DNA of 5,162 bases from a virus (Duplodnaviria; Heunggongvirae; Uroviricota; Caudoviricetes): IMG/VR virus record IMGVR_UViG_2529292977_000014, one strand, 5' to 3'. Shown here piece by piece: positions 1 to 5,162 of the stretch. A model generated the notes under the pieces. That model searched no databases. It saw only the letters and a program-made list of their open reading frames with translations, and was not told the origin of the DNA. Numbering within the stretch: position 1 is the first letter of the stretch; each line of letters begins with the position of its first letter. A program made the translations under genes and the position numbers.

Positions 1-234
1 ATGCGTGATGATCGTTTTAATTCCCTGAAACAGGAATTTTCCGGCGTTCCTGATGATGCGGCTGATGCGCTTTCGTCAATGCCAGAGCTTATTAGAGCGG
101 CTTTTTTCTTACTTTCCACGAGAGAATATAAATCAACGGGGCTTGATGTACTGAATATCGCCGCCGATTATGCGGAATATGTGGCAGAGGCGCGTTATAG
201 AAGAAAATTTCCTGAGGATGTAAGCCATGCGTGA
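1..234 (+). CDS. hypothetical protein (possibly 5'-partial; window starts at an in-frame ATG but the true start may lie upstream)
   Basis: Open frame 1-234 (77 aa) ending at TGA 232-234; same strand as and overlapping by 8 nt the next ORF; no recognisable motif. Confidence 0.35.
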   Translation: MRDDRFNSLKQEFSGVPDDAADALSSMPELIRAAFFLLSTREYKSTGLDVLNIAADYAEYVAEARYRRKFPEDVSHA

Positions 235-460
235 TATTTACCACCAAACAATAGACCGCGCATTTCTTGCACTTTCTCACAGTGAAAACATGATGGAAAT
301 ATTTCGCATATGGCTTGAAACACTTGGCGACAATGAACGCGACAAACAAAAATCAAGAATTGCCACGGCATTAATAACGCTTCTTGAGCCTGTAATAATG
401 GAACTGCAAGAAATAGATCTATTGCACGACAGATATAAAGAACAGCACACCGGAGAATAA
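227..460 (+). CDS. hypothetical small protein
   Basis: ATG at 227 preceded by GAGGA (213-217) at about 9 nt; 77 aa; overlaps the upstream ORF stop, suggesting operon coupling; no recognisable family. Confidence 0.45.
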   Translation: MRDIYHQTIDRAFLALSHSENMMEIFRIWLETLGDNERDKQKSRIATALITLLEPVIMELQEIDLLHDRYKEQHTGE

Positions 461-465
461 AAATA

Positions 466-765
466 ATGAAACTTAAATATTCTGGCTTAACTGCCAGTGG
501 CAACACTCACCCTAAATTTACGCGCGGTGATATTTACCGCGACCAGTACGGCGGCACGGTAATGATTAAGGGCGTGGAAGAACGGCGCGTAACCTACCGC
601 CGTGAAGGTTACGAATATGATTGCGTGATGCCTGTTTATCAGTTCCGGCGTGATTTTTCTCTGGTACAGACCGCGCCGCATAACGTGCCCACCAGCAACG
701 CCAGGGCACGGGCAAACATCCAGAAGCTGAAAACCATGGTTAACGGATTCAGGGGCAAGAAATGA
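466..765 (+). CDS. hypothetical protein, translationally coupled to downstream replication gene
   Basis: ATG at 466 preceded by GGAGA (450-454); 99 aa; its stop overlaps the start of the next gene as ATGA (762-765); basic, Arg/Tyr-rich; no recognisable family. Confidence 0.5.
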   Translation: MKLKYSGLTASGNTHPKFTRGDIYRDQYGGTVMIKGVEERRVTYRREGYEYDCVMPVYQFRRDFSLVQTAPHNVPTSNARARANIQKLKTMVNGFRGKK

Positions 766-2162
766 AAAGCGCACCGAACTTAAAAAAACAGCCTTACGAC
801 AAGATGACCGAAGTCATTATTTTTGCGGGTAGTGATGCCTGGGCACATGCGAAACAGTGGCAGGAACAGGACGGGCGACTGGCTGGCGATAATGTGCCTC
901 CCGTTGTGCTGGCTGATGATCAACTGGATGAACTGGCAGAACTGAGAATCATCGACGAGGGGCGCTATTGTGTCCGGCTGTACAAGGCAGGCCACATCAG
1001 GCCATCAAATATTAATGCCATTGCGCACAAGCTGGCGGCGGCGGGTGTAACTGATGCGAATTATTACCCCGAAGGGATGCACAGCCATATGCGGGAGAAC
1101 TGGCGCGAATACCTGGAACGGGTGCGCGGGAAAGAGCCGGCGGAAGAAAAAAACCACCAGCGAAAAACCACGCTACCGATGAGCGTTGGATCTACCGGAT
1201 ACGACACGCAACTGGATTACGTGGTTAAGGGGATTATTCCGGCGGTATCGCTATGCAGCATATACGGGGCTAGCGGGTCCTATAAATCATTCCTTGCCGG
1301 ATCGTGGGCGTGCCATGTTGCCACTGGTCGCCAGTGGGGAGGCCGCAGGGTTGCACATGGTGCGGTTCTCTATGTGGTTGGTGAAGGCGGTATAGGTGTT
1401 CCGCGTCGTGTAAAAGCCTGGGAGGTTGTGCACGATGAGCAGGTGAAAAATCTGTATCTGGTAAACCGCCCCATCTTTCCGGCTGCCCCGCTTGATGTTG
1501 ATGAAATGGTTATCGCTGCCCGTCAGGTGGAGCGGGAAACGGGTAAACCTGTACGCATGATTATTCTGGATACGCTGGCGCGTTGCTTTGGTGGGAATGA
1601 TGAAAATGATTCCCGTGATATGGGGGCGTTTATCCGTGGTTGTGACGAACTGAAACGACGCACAGGGGCCACGGTGCTGGTGGTTCACCATTCCGGCAAG
1701 GATGAGACGAAAGGCGCGCGCGGTTCCAGTGCATTTCGTGCTTCGCTGGATGCTGAATACCGGATACGCAGGGAGGACGCAGGAAGCGAAGCGCTGGTTA
1801 TCTCATGCACCAAAATGAAGGACGCGGAGGAACTCAAAGAAGCCGCATATGACTTACGCGTGGTGGAGCTTTTTACCGACGCTGACGGTGAATTAATCAC
1901 GTCGCTGGTGGTGGTGGATGATCCGCGCCCTCCTGTTGAACTGGAGCGCATCGAGGAGGCAGGGAACAAGACGGAAAACCATACCGCGCTATGGGGGTGC
2001 ATCCGTTCACGCACACAGAACGGCGACAAGTGCACGATCCCGCTGTTACGTGATGACATGAAAAAGCTGGGGTATGAAATGAAAAACTTCCGGCGCTGGC
2101 TGTACAAGCTGGAAAAAGATGGGGTTATTCGTATCGATGGGGATGATGTAGCGCCGCTATAA
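762..2162 (+). CDS. replication helicase/initiator, RecA-like P-loop NTPase (RepA/DnaB-like, AAA_25-type) with a putative C-terminal DNA-binding domain
   Basis: 466-aa ORF. Walker A GASGSYKS at aa 169-176 (nt 1266-1289); Walker B-like hydrophobic run ending in Asp, MIILD, at aa 266-270; LVVHHSGKDETKGARGSSAF motif at aa 306-325, typical of RepA-like helicases; basic C-terminal region (aa ~400-466) resembles a winged-helix origin-binding domain; iteron array begins at its stop codon. Confidence 0.75.
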   Translation: MKSAPNLKKQPYDKMTEVIIFAGSDAWAHAKQWQEQDGRLAGDNVPPVVLADDQLDELAELRIIDEGRYCVRLYKAGHIRPSNINAIAHKLAAAGVTDANYYPEGMHSHMRENWREYLERVRGKEPAEEKNHQRKTTLPMSVGSTGYDTQLDYVVKGIIPAVSLCSIYGASGSYKSFLAGSWACHVATGRQWGGRRVAHGAVLYVVGEGGIGVPRRVKAWEVVHDEQVKNLYLVNRPIFPAAPLDVDEMVIAARQVERETGKPVRMIILDTLARCFGGNDENDSRDMGAFIRGCDELKRRTGATVLVVHHSGKDETKGARGSSAFRASLDAEYRIRREDAGSEALVISCTKMKDAEELKEAAYDLRVVELFTDADGELITSLVVVDDPRPPVELERIEEAGNKTENHTALWGCIRSRTQNGDKCTIPLLRDDMKKLGYEMKNFRRWLYKLEKDGVIRIDGDDVAPL

Positions 2163-2353
2163 AAGTGAGGAGCAAAAGCGAGGGGGATAGAAAGAGGGCC
2201 AAAATTAGCCCGCTCTCCCTCACTTTTCGACCTGTATACATCCTCAAAAGTGAGGGGTAAAAAAATACTTATGAAACACACACATAGAAAAACCGAAAAT
2301 CCCAACTGCGACGAAGTGAGACGCTTGAAAAAGTGAGGCGAAAAAGTGAGAGG
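2161..2353. repeat. iteron-like repeat array; candidate origin of replication
   Basis: Exact AAAAGTGAGG at 2161-2170, 2246-2255 and 2329-2338; exact inverted copy CCTCACTTTT at 2218-2227; degenerate copies at 2174-2183 (AAAAGCGAGG), 2342-2351 (AAAAGTGAGA) and 2312-2321 (CGAAGTGAGA); A+T-rich tract 2256-2300 between copies; located immediately 3' of the helicase gene. Confidence 0.6.
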
Positions 2354-2362
2354 TTGCGAGAA

Positions 2363-2614
2363 ATGACCCAAAAACGCAGAGACAGAACAGAGCCAAAATA
2401 TAAAGCGTTAGACATGACTGAGCACACCTTAAAGGTGGCAATCAGAACGATAGACCGCCACACGCGGGAAGGATACGCGAAGGAACATCCCGACCTGATA
2501 AGCGCATTCATGACCACGGCGGCGGCAAACTTTGCCACGCTGACAGAACGGGAGATTGCCGAAGCGGAACAGGTAACAACCATCAACGTTAAAACCGGAG
2601 AGGTGGAATTATGA
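2363..2614 (+). CDS. hypothetical small protein, coupled to ssb
   Basis: ATG at 2363 preceded by GAGAGG (2348-2353); 83 aa; stop overlaps the ssb start as ATGA (2611-2614). The six-frame track extends this frame to 2333 (GTG), but the ATG with an RBS is preferred. Confidence 0.5.
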   Translation: MTQKRRDRTEPKYKALDMTEHTLKVAIRTIDRHTREGYAKEHPDLISAFMTTAAANFATLTEREIAEAEQVTTINVKTGEVEL

Positions 2615-3021
2615 CGGCACAGATAGCCGCTTACGGGCGGCTGGTGGACGACCCGCAGGTAAAACAGACCAGCAAGGGCACACCGATGACGCTGGCGCGT
2701 ATGGCGGTATCTTTGCCATGCAGCCAGGCACAGGACGGACAGGCGACGTTATGGTTATCGGTCATCGCATTTGGCAAACAGGCCGGCTTCCTGGCTAAAC
2801 ATCAAAAAGGCGATGTTGCCAGCGTATCCGGCACGATGCAGGTAAGCCAGTGGACCGGACAGAACGGAGAAACGCGGCAGGGCTGGCAGGTTATCGCAGA
2901 CAGCGTAATCAGTGCCCGCGCGGCACGTCCAGGCGGGAACAGACGCAAAACCACAGGCACACAGGGTAATCAGCCACCAGCGGGAGGCGATGACCCTTAC
3001 GGTGATGATATTTCGTTCTGA
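2611..3021 (+). CDS. ssb: single-stranded DNA-binding protein (SSB), short form
   Basis: 136 aa. The N-terminal OB-fold pattern parallels E. coli SSB (GRLVDDPQV vs GNLGQDPEV; LWLSVIAFGKQA vs WHRVVLFGKLA; SQWTGQNGETR vs RKWTDQSGQDR); Gly/Pro/Gln-rich linker; acidic C-terminal tip DDPYGDDISF resembling the SSB DDDIPF tail; RBS GGAGAGGTGG at 2596-2605. Confidence 0.8.
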   Translation: MTAQIAAYGRLVDDPQVKQTSKGTPMTLARMAVSLPCSQAQDGQATLWLSVIAFGKQAGFLAKHQKGDVASVSGTMQVSQWTGQNGETRQGWQVIADSVISARAARPGGNRRKTTGTQGNQPPAGGDDPYGDDISF

Positions 3022-3031
3022 GGGGGTGACG

Positions 3032-3304
3032 ATGGTACATGACCGCATAGCGGAGGAACTGGAGGCGAAAGGCTTTTACCGGAGGGCGGCGGCGCGATGG
3101 GGTGAAGTCATGCAGCTGGTGGAGACAGACAAGGAACGGCATCACATCACGATGCGACGGCTGGAATGTTCAAGGAAGGCACAGAGGGCACCGGAGCCGC
3201 CGGATAATTTCGGAGACCTGAAAAAGGCAGTCGATCGCACTTATGCCGAAATGGGTATAGATGGTGCTGGTGATGAAATATGGCGCAATTACCAGGACAG
3301 CTAA
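3032..3304 (+). CDS. PerC-family-like transcriptional regulator (Pch/PerC homologue), tentative
   Basis: 90 aa; ATG at 3032 preceded by GGGGGTGA; N-terminal motif EELEAKGFYRRAAARWGEVM matches my recollection of the conserved PerC/Pch motif (LE-KG-WRRAA-RW); size typical of the family; followed by an intrinsic terminator. Confidence 0.55.
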   Translation: MVHDRIAEELEAKGFYRRAAARWGEVMQLVETDKERHHITMRRLECSRKAQRAPEPPDNFGDLKKAVDRTYAEMGIDGAGDEIWRNYQDS

Positions 3305-3310
3305 TCAAAC

Positions 3311-3334
3311 AGCCGGAGAAATCCGGCTTTTTTT
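3311..3334 (+). terminator. rho-independent terminator (T1)
   Basis: Stem AGCCGGA (3311-3317) / TCCGGCT (3322-3328) with loop GAAA, followed by a T-run to 3334; 7 nt after the stop of the PerC-like gene. Confidence 0.7.
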
Positions 3335-3430
3335 GCACCAGTTGAAACGGTATGGCGCATTACCGGGTTTTCGTCACGGTCAGGCATAGTTACTATCTGA
3401 AACAAACAGACACAACAGAGGAAAAAAACA

Positions 3431-3655
3431 ATGCCGATGAAATTTGATGAGATATTAAAACAGCGTGATAAATACCATGCTGACAACATGGAGACGATGA
3501 GCATCAATGATTACCGCGCATTCCTGGAGACGGGCGCACTGATTGAAAAGGATCAGCATGGTTTTGTGAGATGTGCTCTATCCGGTGAAATGCTGGCGGT
3601 AAATCCTGAACAGATAGATGCATTGATAGAATTTCTGAAAGAGATCAGAGACTGA
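3431..3655 (+). CDS. hypothetical small protein (orphan, terminator-bracketed cargo gene)
   Basis: ATG at 3431 preceded by AGAGGA (about 3416-3422); 74 aa; acidic; own upstream intergenic region (3337-3430) and bracketed by terminators T1 and T2/T3; no recognisable family. Confidence 0.5.
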   Translation: MPMKFDEILKQRDKYHADNMETMSINDYRAFLETGALIEKDQHGFVRCALSGEMLAVNPEQIDALIEFLKEIRD

Positions 3656-3674
3656 GCCAGCACACAGCACACAT

Positions 3675-3697
3675 AGCCGGAGCAATCCGGCTTTTTT
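3675..3697 (+). terminator. rho-independent terminator (T2), near-duplicate of T1
   Basis: Stem AGCCGGA (3675-3681) / TCCGGCT (3686-3692) with loop GCAA, T-run 3692-3697; 26 of 29 nt identical to the T1 region. Confidence 0.7.
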
Positions 3698-3703
3698 GCG
3701 CCC

Positions 3704-3745
3704 AAAAAAAGCCCGATAAGGTCAGAGGGTTCTTATCGGGCTTTT
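3704..3745. terminator. second, possibly bidirectional, intrinsic terminator (T3)
   Basis: A-tract 3704-3710, perfect 10-bp stem GCCCGATAAG (3711-3720) / CTTATCGGGC (3732-3741), 11-nt loop, T-run 3742-3745. Confidence 0.6.
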
Positions 3746-3821
3746 GCATATGAGGTTTTTGGATGCACTGGCGTTCGTGATCGGGATAATCATTTCATAA
3801 TTTGCAACATAACTCAATATC

Positions 3822-3872
3822 ATTGCATAAAATGCAATTCTGATTATAATCAGGACTGGATAAACATCCAGT
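3822..3872 (+). promoter_or_regulatory. candidate repressor- or activator-controlled promoter with three palindromic operators upstream of the capsid operon
   Basis: Consensus -10 TATAAT at 3845-3850 inside a perfect 14-bp palindrome CTGATTATAATCAG (3840-3853); weak -35 TTGCAT (3823-3828, 16-bp spacer) inside palindrome ATTGCA-N5-TGCAAT (3822-3838); third palindrome ACTGGAT-N4-ATCCAGT (3855-3872) near the predicted start site; AT-rich intergenic region following two terminators. Confidence 0.45.
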
Positions 3873-3906
3873 TATGATTTTTTTAGTCGAAGAGGAATTT
3901 CTTACT

Positions 3907-4113
3907 ATGGCTGAAGAGAAAAAAAGCGGTGTTTCGGTGTACATAAGCCCCGAAATCGTGGAGGTGCTCAAGCAGCGCCACAAAAAAAACTATGAAGCTG
4001 GCGTTGCGGCTGGACTGGATCCGCTGATGACGCCGGAGCCGTCGATAGGTTCACTTGTACGCTCTTATTTACTTGCGGCGCTTGGGATGCATAAAAATTA
4101 TGGGGGTGAATAA
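3907..4113 (+). CDS. hypothetical small protein preceding the capsid gene (possible capsid-accessory protein)
   Basis: ATG at 3907 preceded by AAGAGGA (3890-3896); 68 aa; stop TAA overlaps the capsid ATG (TAATG, 4111-4115). The track ORF begins at ATG 3874, which lacks an RBS and sits inside the operator palindrome. Confidence 0.5.
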   Translation: MAEEKKSGVSVYISPEIVEVLKQRHKKNYEAGVAAGLDPLMTPEPSIGSLVRSYLLAALGMHKNYGGE

Positions 4114-5162
4114 TGGCAGGCAAAGCAACGGCACTTAACACTAACCAGCTTTTCATGTACCTGAATCGCGGGGATATTGCGGATTTTAAATTCAGCCCTC
4201 TGTTTACCACGCTGTTTTTCCCGAACGTGGCGACATTCAGCACGCAAAACATCATGCTGGATACCCTGGACATTGAAGAAGTCACCATGTCGGCGTTTTG
4301 TTCGCCTATGGTGGGTAGCCAGGTTCAGCGCGATAAAGGGTACGAAACCAGCACAATCAAACCTGGCTACATGAAGCCAAAGCACGAAATCGATCCAACG
4401 AAAACCATCATGCGCATGGCTGGAGAAGATCCGGCACAGCTTAACGACCCTACCTATCGCCGTATGCGCCTGATTACTGGCAACATGCGCCGCCAGATAA
4501 ACGCCATTAAGGCACGCGTGGAATGGCTGGCGGTGAATGCGGTAACGACCGGAAAAAACATCATTGAGGGCGAAGGCATAGAACGCTATGAAATCGACTG
4601 GAAAATACCGGAAAACTGCATCATAGAGCAGGCCAAGGGTAAAAAATGGTCCGAGCAGGATAAAGACATGCACGACCCAATCTATGACATCGAGCTTTAT
4701 GCTGATCAGGCTGGTTGCCCCGCAAACGTCATGATTATGGGCGCTGAGGTATGGCGCACATTACGCAGCTTTAAAAAATTCCGTGAGCTGTACGATCTTT
4801 CCCGTGGTTCAGAATCCGCCGCCGAACTGGCCTGTAAAAACCTGGGCGAAGTGGTGAGCTTTAAAGGCTATCTTGGTGATCTGGCCCTTATCGTCTATTC
4901 CGGCAAATACACTGACAGCGATGGTACCGAAAAATATTTCCTTGAGCCTGATTTGCTGGTCCTGGGTAACACCAACAATAAAGGGCTGGTGGCCTATGGT
5001 GCGATAATGGATCAGGAAGCGGTAAGAACGGGCGCTGCGGCACTGGGGATGGCGGATATCTCTGATGTGATGATTGCTCAGGGCCTGCTGTTGCCTGCGA
5101 TTGTGGTGCTGGGGCTAAATATCTGGACCACCAACGATAACGCGCTCTATGCGTCGGGTTTA
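4113..5162 (+). CDS. major capsid protein, lambda gpE-like (Phage_cap_E family), 3'-partial
   Basis: Open frame from ATG 4113 to the window end (350 codons, no stop), RBS GGGGGTG at 4102-4108. Strong motif-by-motif correspondence with lambda gpE as recalled: FKFSPLFTTLFF vs FKFDPLFLRLFF; KPGYMKPKHEIDP vs TPGYVKPKHEVNP; DPTYRRMRLITGNMR vs DPAYRRRRIIMQNMR; KWSEQDKDMHDP vs EWSKRDKSTYDP; SFKGYLGDLALIVYSGKY vs SYKGMYGDVAIVVYSGQY; VLGNT in both. Confidence 0.85.
   Translation, partial: MAGKATALNTNQLFMYLNRGDIADFKFSPLFTTLFFPNVATFSTQNIMLDTLDIEEVTMSAFCSPMVGSQVQRDKGYETSTIKPGYMKPKHEIDPTKTIMRMAGEDPAQLNDPTYRRMRLITGNMRRQINAIKARVEWLAVNAVTTGKNIIEGEGIERYEIDWKIPENCIIEQAKGKKWSEQDKDMHDPIYDIELYADQAGCPANVMIMGAEVWRTLRSFKKFRELYDLSRGSESAAELACKNLGEVVSFKGYLGDLALIVYSGKYTDSDGTEKYFLEPDLLVLGNTNNKGLVAYGAIMDQEAVRTGAAALGMADISDVMIAQGLLLPAIVVLGLNIWTTNDNALYASGL

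What the first reader, a model, noticed from the sequence alone, without database searches (positions are those of the whole stretch)
2161..2353. Iteron array (AAAAGTGAGG, three direct exact copies, one inverted, three degenerate) as a candidate origin immediately 3' of the helicase gene
Seen in sequence: four exact occurrences of a 10-mer (one on the opposite strand) plus three one- or two-mismatch copies within 193 bp, far more than chance predicts for a 10-mer in 5 kb, with an A+T-rich stretch (2256-2300) between copies. The first copy overlaps the helicase stop codon. The first direct copy and the inverted copy also form a 10-bp inverted repeat with a 47-bp spacer. Established knowledge: plasmid, SaPI/PICI and many phage initiators bind iterons beside their own gene and melt an adjacent AT-rich element. 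Inference: this is the element's ori, recognised by the basic C-terminal domain of the 466-aa protein.
Basis: partly seen in the sequence, partly recalled or inferred. Interest (0 to 1): 0.6.

Follow-up and report, generated by a model that had tools for sequence, protein, structure and literature searches.

The report
Replication origin of a phage satellite
The repeats just after the helicase gene are very probably the replication origin of an E. coli O157:H7 phage-satellite island, and comparison with 90 related elements suggests that one amino acid of the helicase's DNA-binding tail decides which repeat sequence it reads.

Summary
AAAAGTGAGG occurs exactly four times (2161, 2246, 2329 on +; 2218 on -), with one-mismatch copies at 2174 and 2342. 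All six AAGTGAG cores in the window, and in the whole 11-kb island, lie in 2163-2350.

The window is a phage-inducible chromosomal island (PICI) of E. coli O157:H7, inserted between roxA and phoQ. It was catalogued in 2018. PICI and SaPI origins are already known to be iterons around an A+T-rich stretch just 3' of the initiator gene, so the kind is known. This origin has not been tested experimentally.

New here: about 90 relatives across Enterobacterales keep the same 200-bp layout. Base 4 of the core RTG-N-GG changes in all copies together, and it tracks the helicase residue at window position N442: N with A (26/27), H with G (12/13), K with G (33/35), S or G with C (9/9).

Compared with EcCICFT073, the helicase core, tail and iterons were exchanged as one cassette.

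Verdict: an origin bound by its own self-loading RepA-type helicase, and a new member of a known kind.

The parts
762..2162 (+). Gene for the 466-aa initiator-helicase. It has an N-terminal domain (aa 1-~122), a RepA/RecA-fold SF4-type helicase core (Pfam AAA_25, aa 148-315) and a C-terminal winged helix (aa 405-466).
   Evidence: Pfam AAA_25, E 2.4e-43. RSF1010 RepA (1g8y) matches at E 6e-5. Annotated 'helicase RepA family protein' in RefSeq.
1974..2159 (+). Coding region of the C-terminal winged-helix domain (aa 405-466): H1 405-419, H2 426-435, H3 443-452, then a beta-hairpin wing at 456-465.
2085..2087 (+). Codon AAC for Asn442, the residue immediately before recognition helix H3. It is the proposed determinant of iteron base 4.
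   Evidence: Residue-to-base association: N-A 26/27, H-G 12/13, K-G 33/35, S-C 8/8, G-C 1/1. Tested on newly fetched loci.
2161..2170 (+). Iteron 1, AAAAGTGAGG (exact). It overlaps the stop codon at 2160-2162.
   Evidence: Base 4 (2168) is a class-splitting column.
2174..2183 (+). Iteron 2, AAAAGCGAGG (1 mismatch).
   Evidence: Base 4 (2181) is a class-splitting column.
2184..2193 (+). Relic of a third left-hand copy. It is intact in relatives (GAGAGTGGGG) and degenerate here (low confidence).
   Evidence: Alignment A3. Column 2191 splits the classes with one exception.
2218..2227 (-). Iteron 4, inverted exact copy. It is the left arm of the 11-bp head-to-head pair.
   Evidence: I2. Base 4 (2220) is a class-splitting column.
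2227..2232 (-). Relic of a second inverted copy: TCGACC here, TCTCAC or TCCCAC in relatives.
2233..2240 (.). TGTATACA, a palindromic motif between the head-to-head iterons. The consensus is GTATAYA/CATATATA, kept whatever the iteron class.
   Evidence: My strict pattern was found 54-80 bp after the stop codon in 50 of 82 loci. By eye, a majority of the 32 misses also carry a TATA-type variant there (CCTATATAC, TGTATATG, TTATATAG), while roughly a dozen show none in the 60 bp printed. Background is 0.008 per 60 bp.
2246..2255 (+). Iteron 6, exact copy. It is the right arm of the head-to-head pair.
   Evidence: Base 4 (2253) is a class-splitting column.
2256..2300 (.). A+T-rich, A-skewed stretch (27% G+C). 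It is the candidate DNA-unwinding element.
   Evidence: The position is conserved in all relatives.
2312..2321 (+). Iteron 7, CGAAGTGAGA (core intact).
   Evidence: (D3).
2329..2338 (+). Iteron 8, exact copy.
   Evidence: Base 4 (2336) is a class-splitting column.
2342..2351 (+). Iteron 9, AAAAGTGAGA (1 mismatch).
   Evidence: Column 2349 splits the classes with one exception.
2352..2361 (+). Iteron 10, GGTTGCGAGA (degenerate). It abuts the start codon of the next gene.
   Evidence: Base 4 (2359) is a class-splitting column.
1128..2434 (+). Cassette exchanged relative to EcCICFT073: helicase core, winged helix, iterons and the first 24 codons of the next ORF.
   Evidence: blastn against L007 shows homology at 1-1127 and 2435-3255 only around this region.
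2363..2614 (+). 83-aa ORF of unknown function (phrog_1231). Its start is overlapped by the right-hand iterons.
2611..3021 (+). Island-encoded single-stranded DNA-binding protein, a likely accessory of the replicon.
   Evidence: Pfam SSB, E 9e-16.

Best explanation
Positions 2160-2362 are the vegetative replication origin of a phage-inducible chromosomal island. The origin is read by the island's own initiator-helicase, encoded immediately upstream.

Proposed mechanism:
1. A helper phage induces the island's rightward operon, and the 466-aa protein is made.
2. The protein is a RepA-type (RecA-fold, SF4) hexameric helicase with a C-terminal winged helix. These winged helices dock on the RTG-A-GG cores.
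3. The cores form a left group (copies at the stop codon, plus a head-to-head pair around TGTATACA) and a right group of 3-4 direct copies. The two groups flank a 45-bp stretch of 27% G+C.
4. Clustering of protomers on the two groups assembles helicase rings, melts the A+T-rich DNA and loads the helicase without DnaA or DnaC.
5. The island's SSB coats the strands, and host primase and Pol III do the synthesis.

Specificity. Origin choice is set largely by the residue before the recognition helix (Asn442 here, reading A at core base 4). This makes helicase and origin a matched, exchangeable cassette.

What is shown and what is inferred. Shown here: the repeat anatomy, its conservation, concerted variation, residue-base covariation, the winged-helix fold and the cassette exchange. 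Inferred: binding, melting, loading and replication.
For: Identity of the element.
- The window matches the O157:H7 island between roxA and phoQ at 100%.
- The island is listed as a PICI.

Known rule for the kind.
- PICI origins lie immediately 3' of rep, as two iteron sets flanking an A+T-rich region. This was tested for EcCICFT073.
- The SaPI Rep C-terminal winged helix binds iterons placed just after rep.

Same slot, different cassette.
- EcCICFT073 has an SF3 initiator with different iterons in the same slot.
- The exchanged unit is 1128-2434.

Conservation.
- The layout is kept in E. coli, Xenorhabdus, Kosakonia, Citrobacter, Pantoea, Morganella and Yersinia.
- Core density is 2.46 per 100 bp inside the region against 0.071 outside.

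Concerted change and covariation.
- All six perfectly class-splitting columns of 231 are base 4 of an iteron.
- The association is N-A 26/27, H-G 12/13, K-G 33/35, S-C 8/8 and G-C 1/1. The helicase tree implies at least 10 changes of residue and at least 10 of base.
- On newly fetched loci the rule held for P0007, P0015 and P0111. P0114 (Gly) fell with the Ser class, which was not predicted (its prediction was recorded as 'unknown' in note). P0069 was mixed.
- A Klebsiella circular record also fitted.

Fold and context.
- No DnaA box or IHF site lies in 2160-2362, and no sigma-70 promoter, + strand terminator or Rfam family was found there.
Against: - There is no experiment on this origin or on any RepA-type PICI origin in the library searched.
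- The N442 codon lies only 75 bp from the first iteron. Physical linkage alone would therefore co-transmit residue and repeats, and the covariation is not phylogenetically independent at every tip.
- This particular copy has lost several repeat positions that relatives keep: about 6 good cores against 11 in L006. One Salmonella relative has mixed cores.
- The iterons flanking the A+T-rich stretch point the same way. The opposed pair lies to its left, so the melting site is uncertain.
- The whole-protein model is poor (pLDDT 60).
Confidence: 0.8

Rival explanations
1. The array is an origin by descent but is decayed in this O157:H7 island. The helicase still binds some copies, yet the array no longer supports efficient initiation.
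For: Relatives have 9-11 clean cores. The window has 4 exact and 2 one-mismatch 10-mers plus relics at 2184-2193, 2227-2232 and 2352-2361. The same island carries a pseudogenised Icd-like gene.
Against: The helicase ORF is intact and invariant residues are kept. The head-to-head pair is perfect. At least two good copies remain on each side, which is what SaPI origins conserve. The sequence is 99% or more identical in 369 genomes.
Confidence: 0.1
2. The repeats are mainly operators. The helicase or another island protein would bind them to regulate transcription or translation of the downstream genes (83-aa ORF, SSB, PerC), with no role in initiation.
For: The right-hand copies run into the ribosome-binding site and start codon of the 2363 ORF. 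Initiators of iteron replicons often autoregulate (established knowledge).
Against: No sigma-70-like promoter lies in 1900-2700. The array has the two-sets-around-A+T layout of tested PICI and SaPI origins. It is exchanged together with the helicase motor rather than with the downstream genes. A regulatory side-effect is not excluded and would be compatible with the main explanation.
Confidence: 0.06
3. The repeats are a packaging (cos/pac) or partition site, read by a terminase small subunit or a centromere-binding protein.
For: The island encodes a small terminase and capsid proteins. Pac and par sites are often repeat arrays (established knowledge).
Against: The repeats co-vary with a helicase residue and travel with the helicase. 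The terS gene is 4 kb away. No ParA/ParB-like gene is annotated. The same replicon cassette occurs in elements with unrelated packaging modules.
Confidence: 0.02
4. The repeats are a chance cluster or a slippage product with no function.
For: The whole-window count at <=2 mismatches is not above expectation.
Against: Four or more copies within 200 bp occurred in 5 of 1000 shuffles. Conservation is positional, and substitution is concerted across genera.
Confidence: 0.01

Closest known systems
Gram-negative PICI origin, tested in EcCICFT073 (Fillol-Salom et al. 2018, ISME J, PMC6092414)
   Same: It is the same island family, the same attachment site (roxA/ycfD-phoQ) and the same slot between the initiator gene and the small ORF-SSB-PerC genes. 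Short iterons occur in both orientations around an A+T-rich stretch. The initiator has a shared N-terminal domain and a C-terminal DNA-binding tail.
   Different: The motor is a RecA-fold RepA/AAA_25 helicase, not the D5_N/DUF5906 SF3 helicase. The iteron is RTGAGG, not CTGTCTACC/GGTAGA. Only the EcCICFT073 replicon has been tested.
SaPI Rep-ori (staphylococcal self-loading helicases; Qiao et al. 2022 NAR, PMC9371898, and work cited there)
   Same: A helicase-initiator with a C-terminal winged helix reads 5-6-bp iterons placed immediately after its own gene. Six to twelve iterons are split by a central A+T-rich region, and no separate loader is needed.
   Different: SaPI Reps are AAA+ helicases of the SF3/MCM kind that translocate 3'-5'. 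This protein is related to RSF1010 RepA (SF4). The host clade is different, and there is no sequence homology.
Satellite phage P4 alpha protein with ori/crr
   Same: Both are enterobacterial phage satellites with a multidomain initiator-helicase whose C-terminal domain binds short repeats (own knowledge; P4 alpha and its ori are mentioned).
   Different: P4 alpha is a primase plus SF3 helicase and needs a second distant repeat cluster (crr). Here the only AAGTGAG copies in the island are the six in the origin.
RSF1010/IncQ RepA helicase and oriV
   Same: The helicase core is homologous (1g8y, E 6e-5).
   Different: In IncQ plasmids a separate protein (RepC) binds 20-bp iterons and RepA has no DNA-reading tail (own knowledge). 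Here the helicase carries its own winged helix and no RepC-like gene is present.
T7 gp4-type primase-helicases
   Same: Relatives carrying the same AAA_25 core and winged-helix tail have Zn-ribbon plus Toprim primase N-termini, as gp4 does. Foldseek's best hit for the whole model is T7 gp4, but this is weak (E 2e-4, TM 0.18).
   Different: gp4 has no origin-binding winged helix. The window protein has no recognisable primase domain.

Membership tests
PICI/SaPI-type replication origin | Lies immediately 3' of the initiator (rep/helicase) gene of a phage-inducible chromosomal island | tested here: met
   The array starts inside the stop codon at 2160-2162. The island has int and an AlpA-type HTH gene, is transcribed rightward, sits at roxA-phoQ, and is listed as a PICI.
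PICI/SaPI-type replication origin | Two sets of short iterons flanking an A+T-rich region, with copies in both orientations | tested here: met
   Left set 2161-2255 (including inverted 2218-2227), A+T-rich 2256-2300 (27% G+C), right set 2312-2361.
PICI/SaPI-type replication origin | The cognate initiator is a helicase with a C-terminal winged-helix domain | tested here: met
PICI/SaPI-type replication origin | The initiator binds the iterons specifically | not testable with these tools
   Only indirect evidence is available: residue-442 to base-4 covariation, concerted substitution and cassette co-transfer.
PICI/SaPI-type replication origin | The rep-ori fragment drives autonomous replication, and deleting ori abolishes it | not testable with these tools
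   Shown only for EcCICFT073. Related elements appear as small circular records in assemblies (CP018459.1, 17 kb), which is suggestive only.
Classical iteron-plasmid origin (Rep_3 type: pSC101, R6K, RK2, F, P1) | 17-22-bp iterons in helical phase, bound by a dedicated two-winged-helix Rep protein | tested here: not met
   The unit is 10 bp with a 6-bp core and spacing of 9-17 bp. The adjacent protein is an AAA_25 helicase, not Rep_3.
Classical iteron-plasmid origin (Rep_3 type) | DnaA boxes, and often IHF sites, in the origin | tested here: not met
   No TTWTNCACA match (<=1 mismatch) and no IHF consensus in 2160-2362.
P4 ori/crr system | SF3 primase-helicase alpha, plus a second cis-required repeat cluster at a distance | tested here: not met
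   There are no D5_N, DUF5906 or primase domains. There is no second AAGTGAG cluster in the island.
IncQ (RSF1010) replicon | Separate RepC initiator and RepB' primase with ssiA/ssiB | tested here: not met
   Only the RepA helicase core is shared. The island annotation shows no RepC- or RepB-like gene. The ssi sites were not searched for.

The most novel reading that the evidence does not exclude
A one-residue, one-base recognition code may operate in this family. The residue capping the winged-helix recognition helix (Asn for A, His or Lys for G, Ser or Gly for C at base 4 of RTG-N-GG) would set origin specificity for a whole family of RepA-type self-loading helicases in Enterobacterales satellites. 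Switching this residue, together with concerted change of about 10 iterons, would create mutually orthogonal replicons. That would let several satellites share one cell without cross-initiation. It would occasionally be exploited, as in the Xenorhabdus element that carries two complete tandem origins of different specificity.
Probability: 0.5. Interest if true: 0.6.

Novelty: new member of a known kind. Interest (0 to 1): 0.45.

Why it matters
- Origin identity. If confirmed, this fixes the origin of a satellite family present in about a fifth of complete E. coli genomes. 1055 of 5426 genomes match the 321-bp query spanning the origin (window 2100-2420), which also covers the last 63 bp of the helicase gene and the first 58 bp of the next ORF. 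606 genomes cover at least 80% of it, and some of the 1055 match only the part over the next ORF. The family includes O157:H7 islands that carry PerC-type virulence regulators.
- Convergent design. The SaPI/PICI design of a helicase with its own winged helix reading iterons behind its gene has also been built on an SF4/RepA motor, not only on AAA+ motors. Interchangeable N-terminal priming modules are attached to it: Zn-ribbon plus Toprim, Prim-Pol, or DnaB-N.
- Practical use. The proposed residue-base code is simple enough to test by one point mutation. It could explain compatibility among co-resident satellites and provide orthogonal helicase-origin pairs for engineering.

Tried and rejected
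- Specificity determinant. I first suspected helix 1 of the tail (GCIRSRTQ versus QCIRTRTA). L006 has the first type but GTGGGG iterons, which rejects this.
- Host-factor sites. There are no DnaA boxes or IHF consensus sites in the origin.
- Transcription signals and RNA. No sigma-70 promoter was found. The only terminator-like hairpin is on the minus strand (2211-2196) and is within chance expectation. No Rfam family matched.
- Hairpin potential. As single-stranded DNA the head-to-head pair folds at -9.6 kcal/mol (z = -3.9). This follows automatically from two opposed iterons and says nothing further.
- Tail-only homologue search. It returned only gene fragments from E. coli and was of little use.
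- Whole-protein model. AlphaFold2 gave mean pLDDT 60 with the core at 25-50, so the Foldseek hits on it (T7 gp4, RAD51; TM about 0.2) are only a weak lead.
- N-terminal domain. Pfam finds nothing in aa 1-133. PHROGs links it to part of a 'DNA primase' family (phrog_864). I could not decide whether it is a degenerate Toprim.
- Literature. I found no paper on a RepA-type PICI origin. Figure 2a of Fillol-Salom 2018, which shows iteron sequences of several E. coli PICIs, is not held as text, so I cannot tell whether this very iteron was drawn there.
Full report
**What the window is.**
Bases 1-5035 are 100% identical to a chromosomal island of many E. coli O157:H7 genomes, for example NC_011353.1 (EC4115) 1539739-1544773. 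In EC4115 the island runs from a tyrosine integrase next to roxA (ycfD) to just before phoQ. In order it carries an AlpA-type HTH gene, Icd-like genes, small ORFs, a DUF4222 gene, a 'helicase RepA family protein', an 83-aa ORF, SSB, PerC, then capsid, decoration protein and small terminase genes. The supplementary table of Fillol-Salom et al. 2018 lists this 11.2-kb element (ECH74115_1571) as a PICI of the EcCICFT073 group. The last roughly 130 bases of the window (5029-5162) are instead 100% cytosine permease codB. The window therefore ends in a chimeric junction that has nothing to do with the finding.

**The observation.**
- AAAAGTGAGG is exact at 2161, 2246 and 2329 (+) and at 2218 (-). 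One-mismatch copies are at 2174 and 2342.
- All six AAGTGAG in the window lie between 2163 and 2350. They are the only copies in the entire island.
- Four or more copies of any 10-mer within 200 bp arose in 5 of 1000 dinucleotide-preserving shuffles.
- The stop codon (2160-2162) is overlapped by copy 1.
- 2256-2300 is 27% G+C against 50% overall.

**Comparative anatomy.**
I compared three sets of relatives:
- divergent E. coli homologues of the 2100-2420 region, at 68-78% identity;
- 80 loci from other Enterobacterales found with the helicase alignment;
- five loci fetched through specific homologous proteins.

All show the same plan in the roughly 200 bp between the helicase stop codon and the next ORF:
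1. two to four direct copies beginning at the stop codon;
2. a spacer;
3. one or two inverted copies;
4. a GTATAYA/CATATATA motif;
5. one direct copy;
6. an A+T-rich stretch of about 50 bp;
7. three to five direct copies that end at the next start codon.

The core RTGNGG occurs at 2.46 per 100 bp in this region against 0.071 per 100 bp in the rest of the loci. The window copy is somewhat eroded. Alignment shows relics where relatives have clean copies: near 2184-2193, at 2227-2232 and at 2352-2361.

**Concerted change.**
The core is GTGAGG in some elements, GTGGGG in others and GTGCGG in a third group. Within any one element nearly all copies agree. In an alignment of nine E. coli origins (231 columns), exactly six columns separate the GTGAGG elements from the GTGGGG elements without exception. 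All six are base 4 of a repeat copy: window 2168, 2181, 2220, 2253, 2336 and 2359. Two of the five one-exception columns are also base 4 (2191, 2349). This is the signature of sites read by one common protein.

**Which protein.**
Three lines point to the upstream helicase.

(a) Cassette exchange.
- Against EcCICFT073, which sits at the same chromosomal site, DNA homology covers window 1-1127 and 2435-3255 but not 1128-2434.
- In that gap EcCICFT073 has a D5_N/DUF5906/Pox_D5 (SF3) initiator and quite different iterons, CTGTCTACC/GGTAGA.
- So the helicase core, its C-terminal tail and the repeats were exchanged as one unit. The first roughly 122 residues of the two initiators are shared.

(b) Fold.
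- Residues 396-466 modelled alone give mean pLDDT 88.8. The topology is H1 (405-419), H2 (426-435), H3 (443-452) and a beta hairpin, which is a winged helix.
- An exhaustive profile search found this tail in only 75 cluster representatives, always at the extreme C-terminus. All ten long representatives checked in Pfam carry an AAA_25 core.

(c) Covariation.
- The residue immediately before H3 (window Asn442, in MK-N-FRRWLYKL) tracks base 4 of the core:

| Residue | Base 4 | Loci fitting |
|---|---|---|
| Asn | A | 26 of 27 |
| His | G | 12 of 13 |
| Lys | G | 33 of 35 |
| Ser | C | 8 of 8 |
| Gly | C | 1 of 1 |

- On a neighbour-joining tree of the helicase with that column masked, parsimony needs at least 10 changes of the residue and at least 10 of the base.
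- Within E. coli both tail backgrounds carry both states with matching iterons. L003 (N, A) pairs with L006 (H, G), and P0015 (N, A) pairs with P0007 (H, G). The last two tails differ at only four positions.
- I wrote down predictions before fetching five further loci (note). Three held outright. The Gly-bearing protein, for which I had made no prediction, fell with the Ser class. One Salmonella locus had mixed cores. A 17-kb circular Klebsiella record fitted too.
- The pairings Asn-adenine and His/Lys-guanine are the common ones in protein-DNA complexes (established knowledge). This would not be expected from linkage alone.
- The caveat is that the codon lies 75 bp from the first iteron, so co-inheritance is automatic. 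Direct contact is inferred, not shown.

**The protein.**
- The core matches Pfam AAA_25 (E 2.4e-43) and RSF1010 RepA (1g8y, E 6e-5). It is therefore a RecA-fold, SF4-type hexameric helicase.
- The tail is mildly basic (pI 8.7) on an acidic protein.
- Relatives with the same core and tail carry different N-termini: Zn-ribbon plus Toprim primase, Prim-Pol plus PriCT_2, DnaB N-terminal domain, or nothing.
- The window's own N-terminal domain has no Pfam match. It models confidently as an alpha/beta domain (pLDDT 82-91) and is the part shared with the EcCICFT073 initiator.

**What the region is not.**
- There is no sigma-70-type promoter in 1900-2700 and no + strand intrinsic terminator.
- There is no Rfam match.
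- There is no DnaA box or IHF consensus in the array.
- It therefore does not look like a classical Rep_3/DnaA iteron-plasmid origin, a P4 ori/crr pair (no second cluster) or an IncQ oriV.

**Mechanism proposed.**
The region works like a SaPI or PICI origin. In SaPIs a self-loading helicase uses a C-terminal winged helix to read 5-6-bp iterons placed just behind its own gene, split by an A+T-rich centre, and needs no loader. The Gram-negative PICIs are described as having the same organisation, with rep-ori function shown for EcCICFT073. Here the same design is built on an SF4/RepA motor. Binding of the winged helices to the two repeat groups would assemble rings, melt either the TGTATACA spacer or the 27% G+C stretch, and load the helicase. 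The island SSB and the host replisome would do the rest. Binding, melting and replication are all inferred.

**Novelty and verdict.**
- The kind is known, and the island is catalogued. The 2018 paper states that all its PICIs share this origin organisation.
- I found no paper on RepA-type PICI origins or on a residue-base specificity rule.
- I therefore rate the finding as a correct identification of a new member of a known kind. Its added value is a testable specificity code, together with the observation that helicase core, tail and iterons move as one exchangeable cassette.

Noticed in passing
window 5029-5162: The end of the window is 100% identical to the chromosomal cytosine permease gene codB, not to the island's capsid gene. 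The match to O157:H7 islands stops at 5035. This looks like a chimeric junction or assembly artefact.
   Followed up: partly
window 762-1127 versus L007 5242-5616: The first ~122 residues of the RepA-type helicase are homologous (84% DNA identity over window 1-1127) to the N-terminus of the unrelated SF3 'primase family' initiator of EcCICFT073. So the two initiator types share an N-terminal module of unknown function. It has no Pfam hit but hits part of phrog_864 'DNA primase'. It models as an alpha/beta domain at pLDDT 82-91.
   Followed up: partly
L009 4085-4515 (Xenorhabdus beddingii): Two complete origin units lie in tandem behind one helicase gene. The first has GTGAGG cores, matching the Asn-type helicase. 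The second has GTGGGG cores, the specificity of His/Lys-type helicases. This is unique among the 84 loci scanned. It may be a way to be replicated by another element's helicase, or a leftover of cassette replacement.
   Followed up: partly
L093 = CP018459.1 (Klebsiella pneumoniae 'plasmid' pKp_Goe_795-4, 16,971 bp, circular): This record, deposited as a plasmid, carries an integrase, capsid, terminase and head-tail adaptor genes plus the same RepA-type helicase with GTGCGG iterons. It looks like an excised capsid-forming PICI assembled as a circle. A 10.8-kb E. coli record (NZ_CP148328.1) with the shared N-terminal domain may be similar.
   Followed up: partly
window 2233-2240, and the same position in relatives: A GTATAYA/CATATATA motif sits between the head-to-head iterons whatever the iteron class. 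My strict pattern found it in 50 of 82 loci. By eye, a majority of the 32 misses carry a TATA-type variant there, and roughly a dozen show none in the printed stretch. Its role is unknown: a melting point, or a site for a host factor.
   Followed up: partly
L090 2889-3300 and L089 3190-3310 (Salmonella and E. coli relatives): The Salmonella origin mixes GTGAGG and GTGGGG/GTGGGT cores. Both loci have a second partial unit (inverted copy, GCGTATATATA, direct copy, A+T-rich) about 300 bp further downstream, in place of the 83-aa ORF and SSB.
   Followed up: no
P0147, P0149, P0165, P0186, P0154, P0170, P0178: The AAA_25 core plus winged-helix tail is combined with at least four different N-terminal modules: Zn-ribbon plus Toprim, Prim-Pol plus PriCT_2, DnaB N-terminal domain, and Toprim alone. 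This suggests a modular family of origin-specific primase-helicases.
   Followed up: partly
window 3312-3334 and 3676-3698: Two near-identical GC-rich hairpins followed by T runs (GCCGGAGAAATCCGGCTTTTTTT and AGCCGGAGCAATCCGGCTTTTTT) follow the PerC gene and the 74-aa ORF. They look like intrinsic terminators. The first also matches a site in EcCICFT073 (L007 10504-10526).
   Followed up: no
L091 (protein P0111): A helicase variant with KHLKRW instead of KHFRRW has cores GTGGG followed by C, A or T rather than G. This hints that residues inside the recognition helix read base 6.
   Followed up: no
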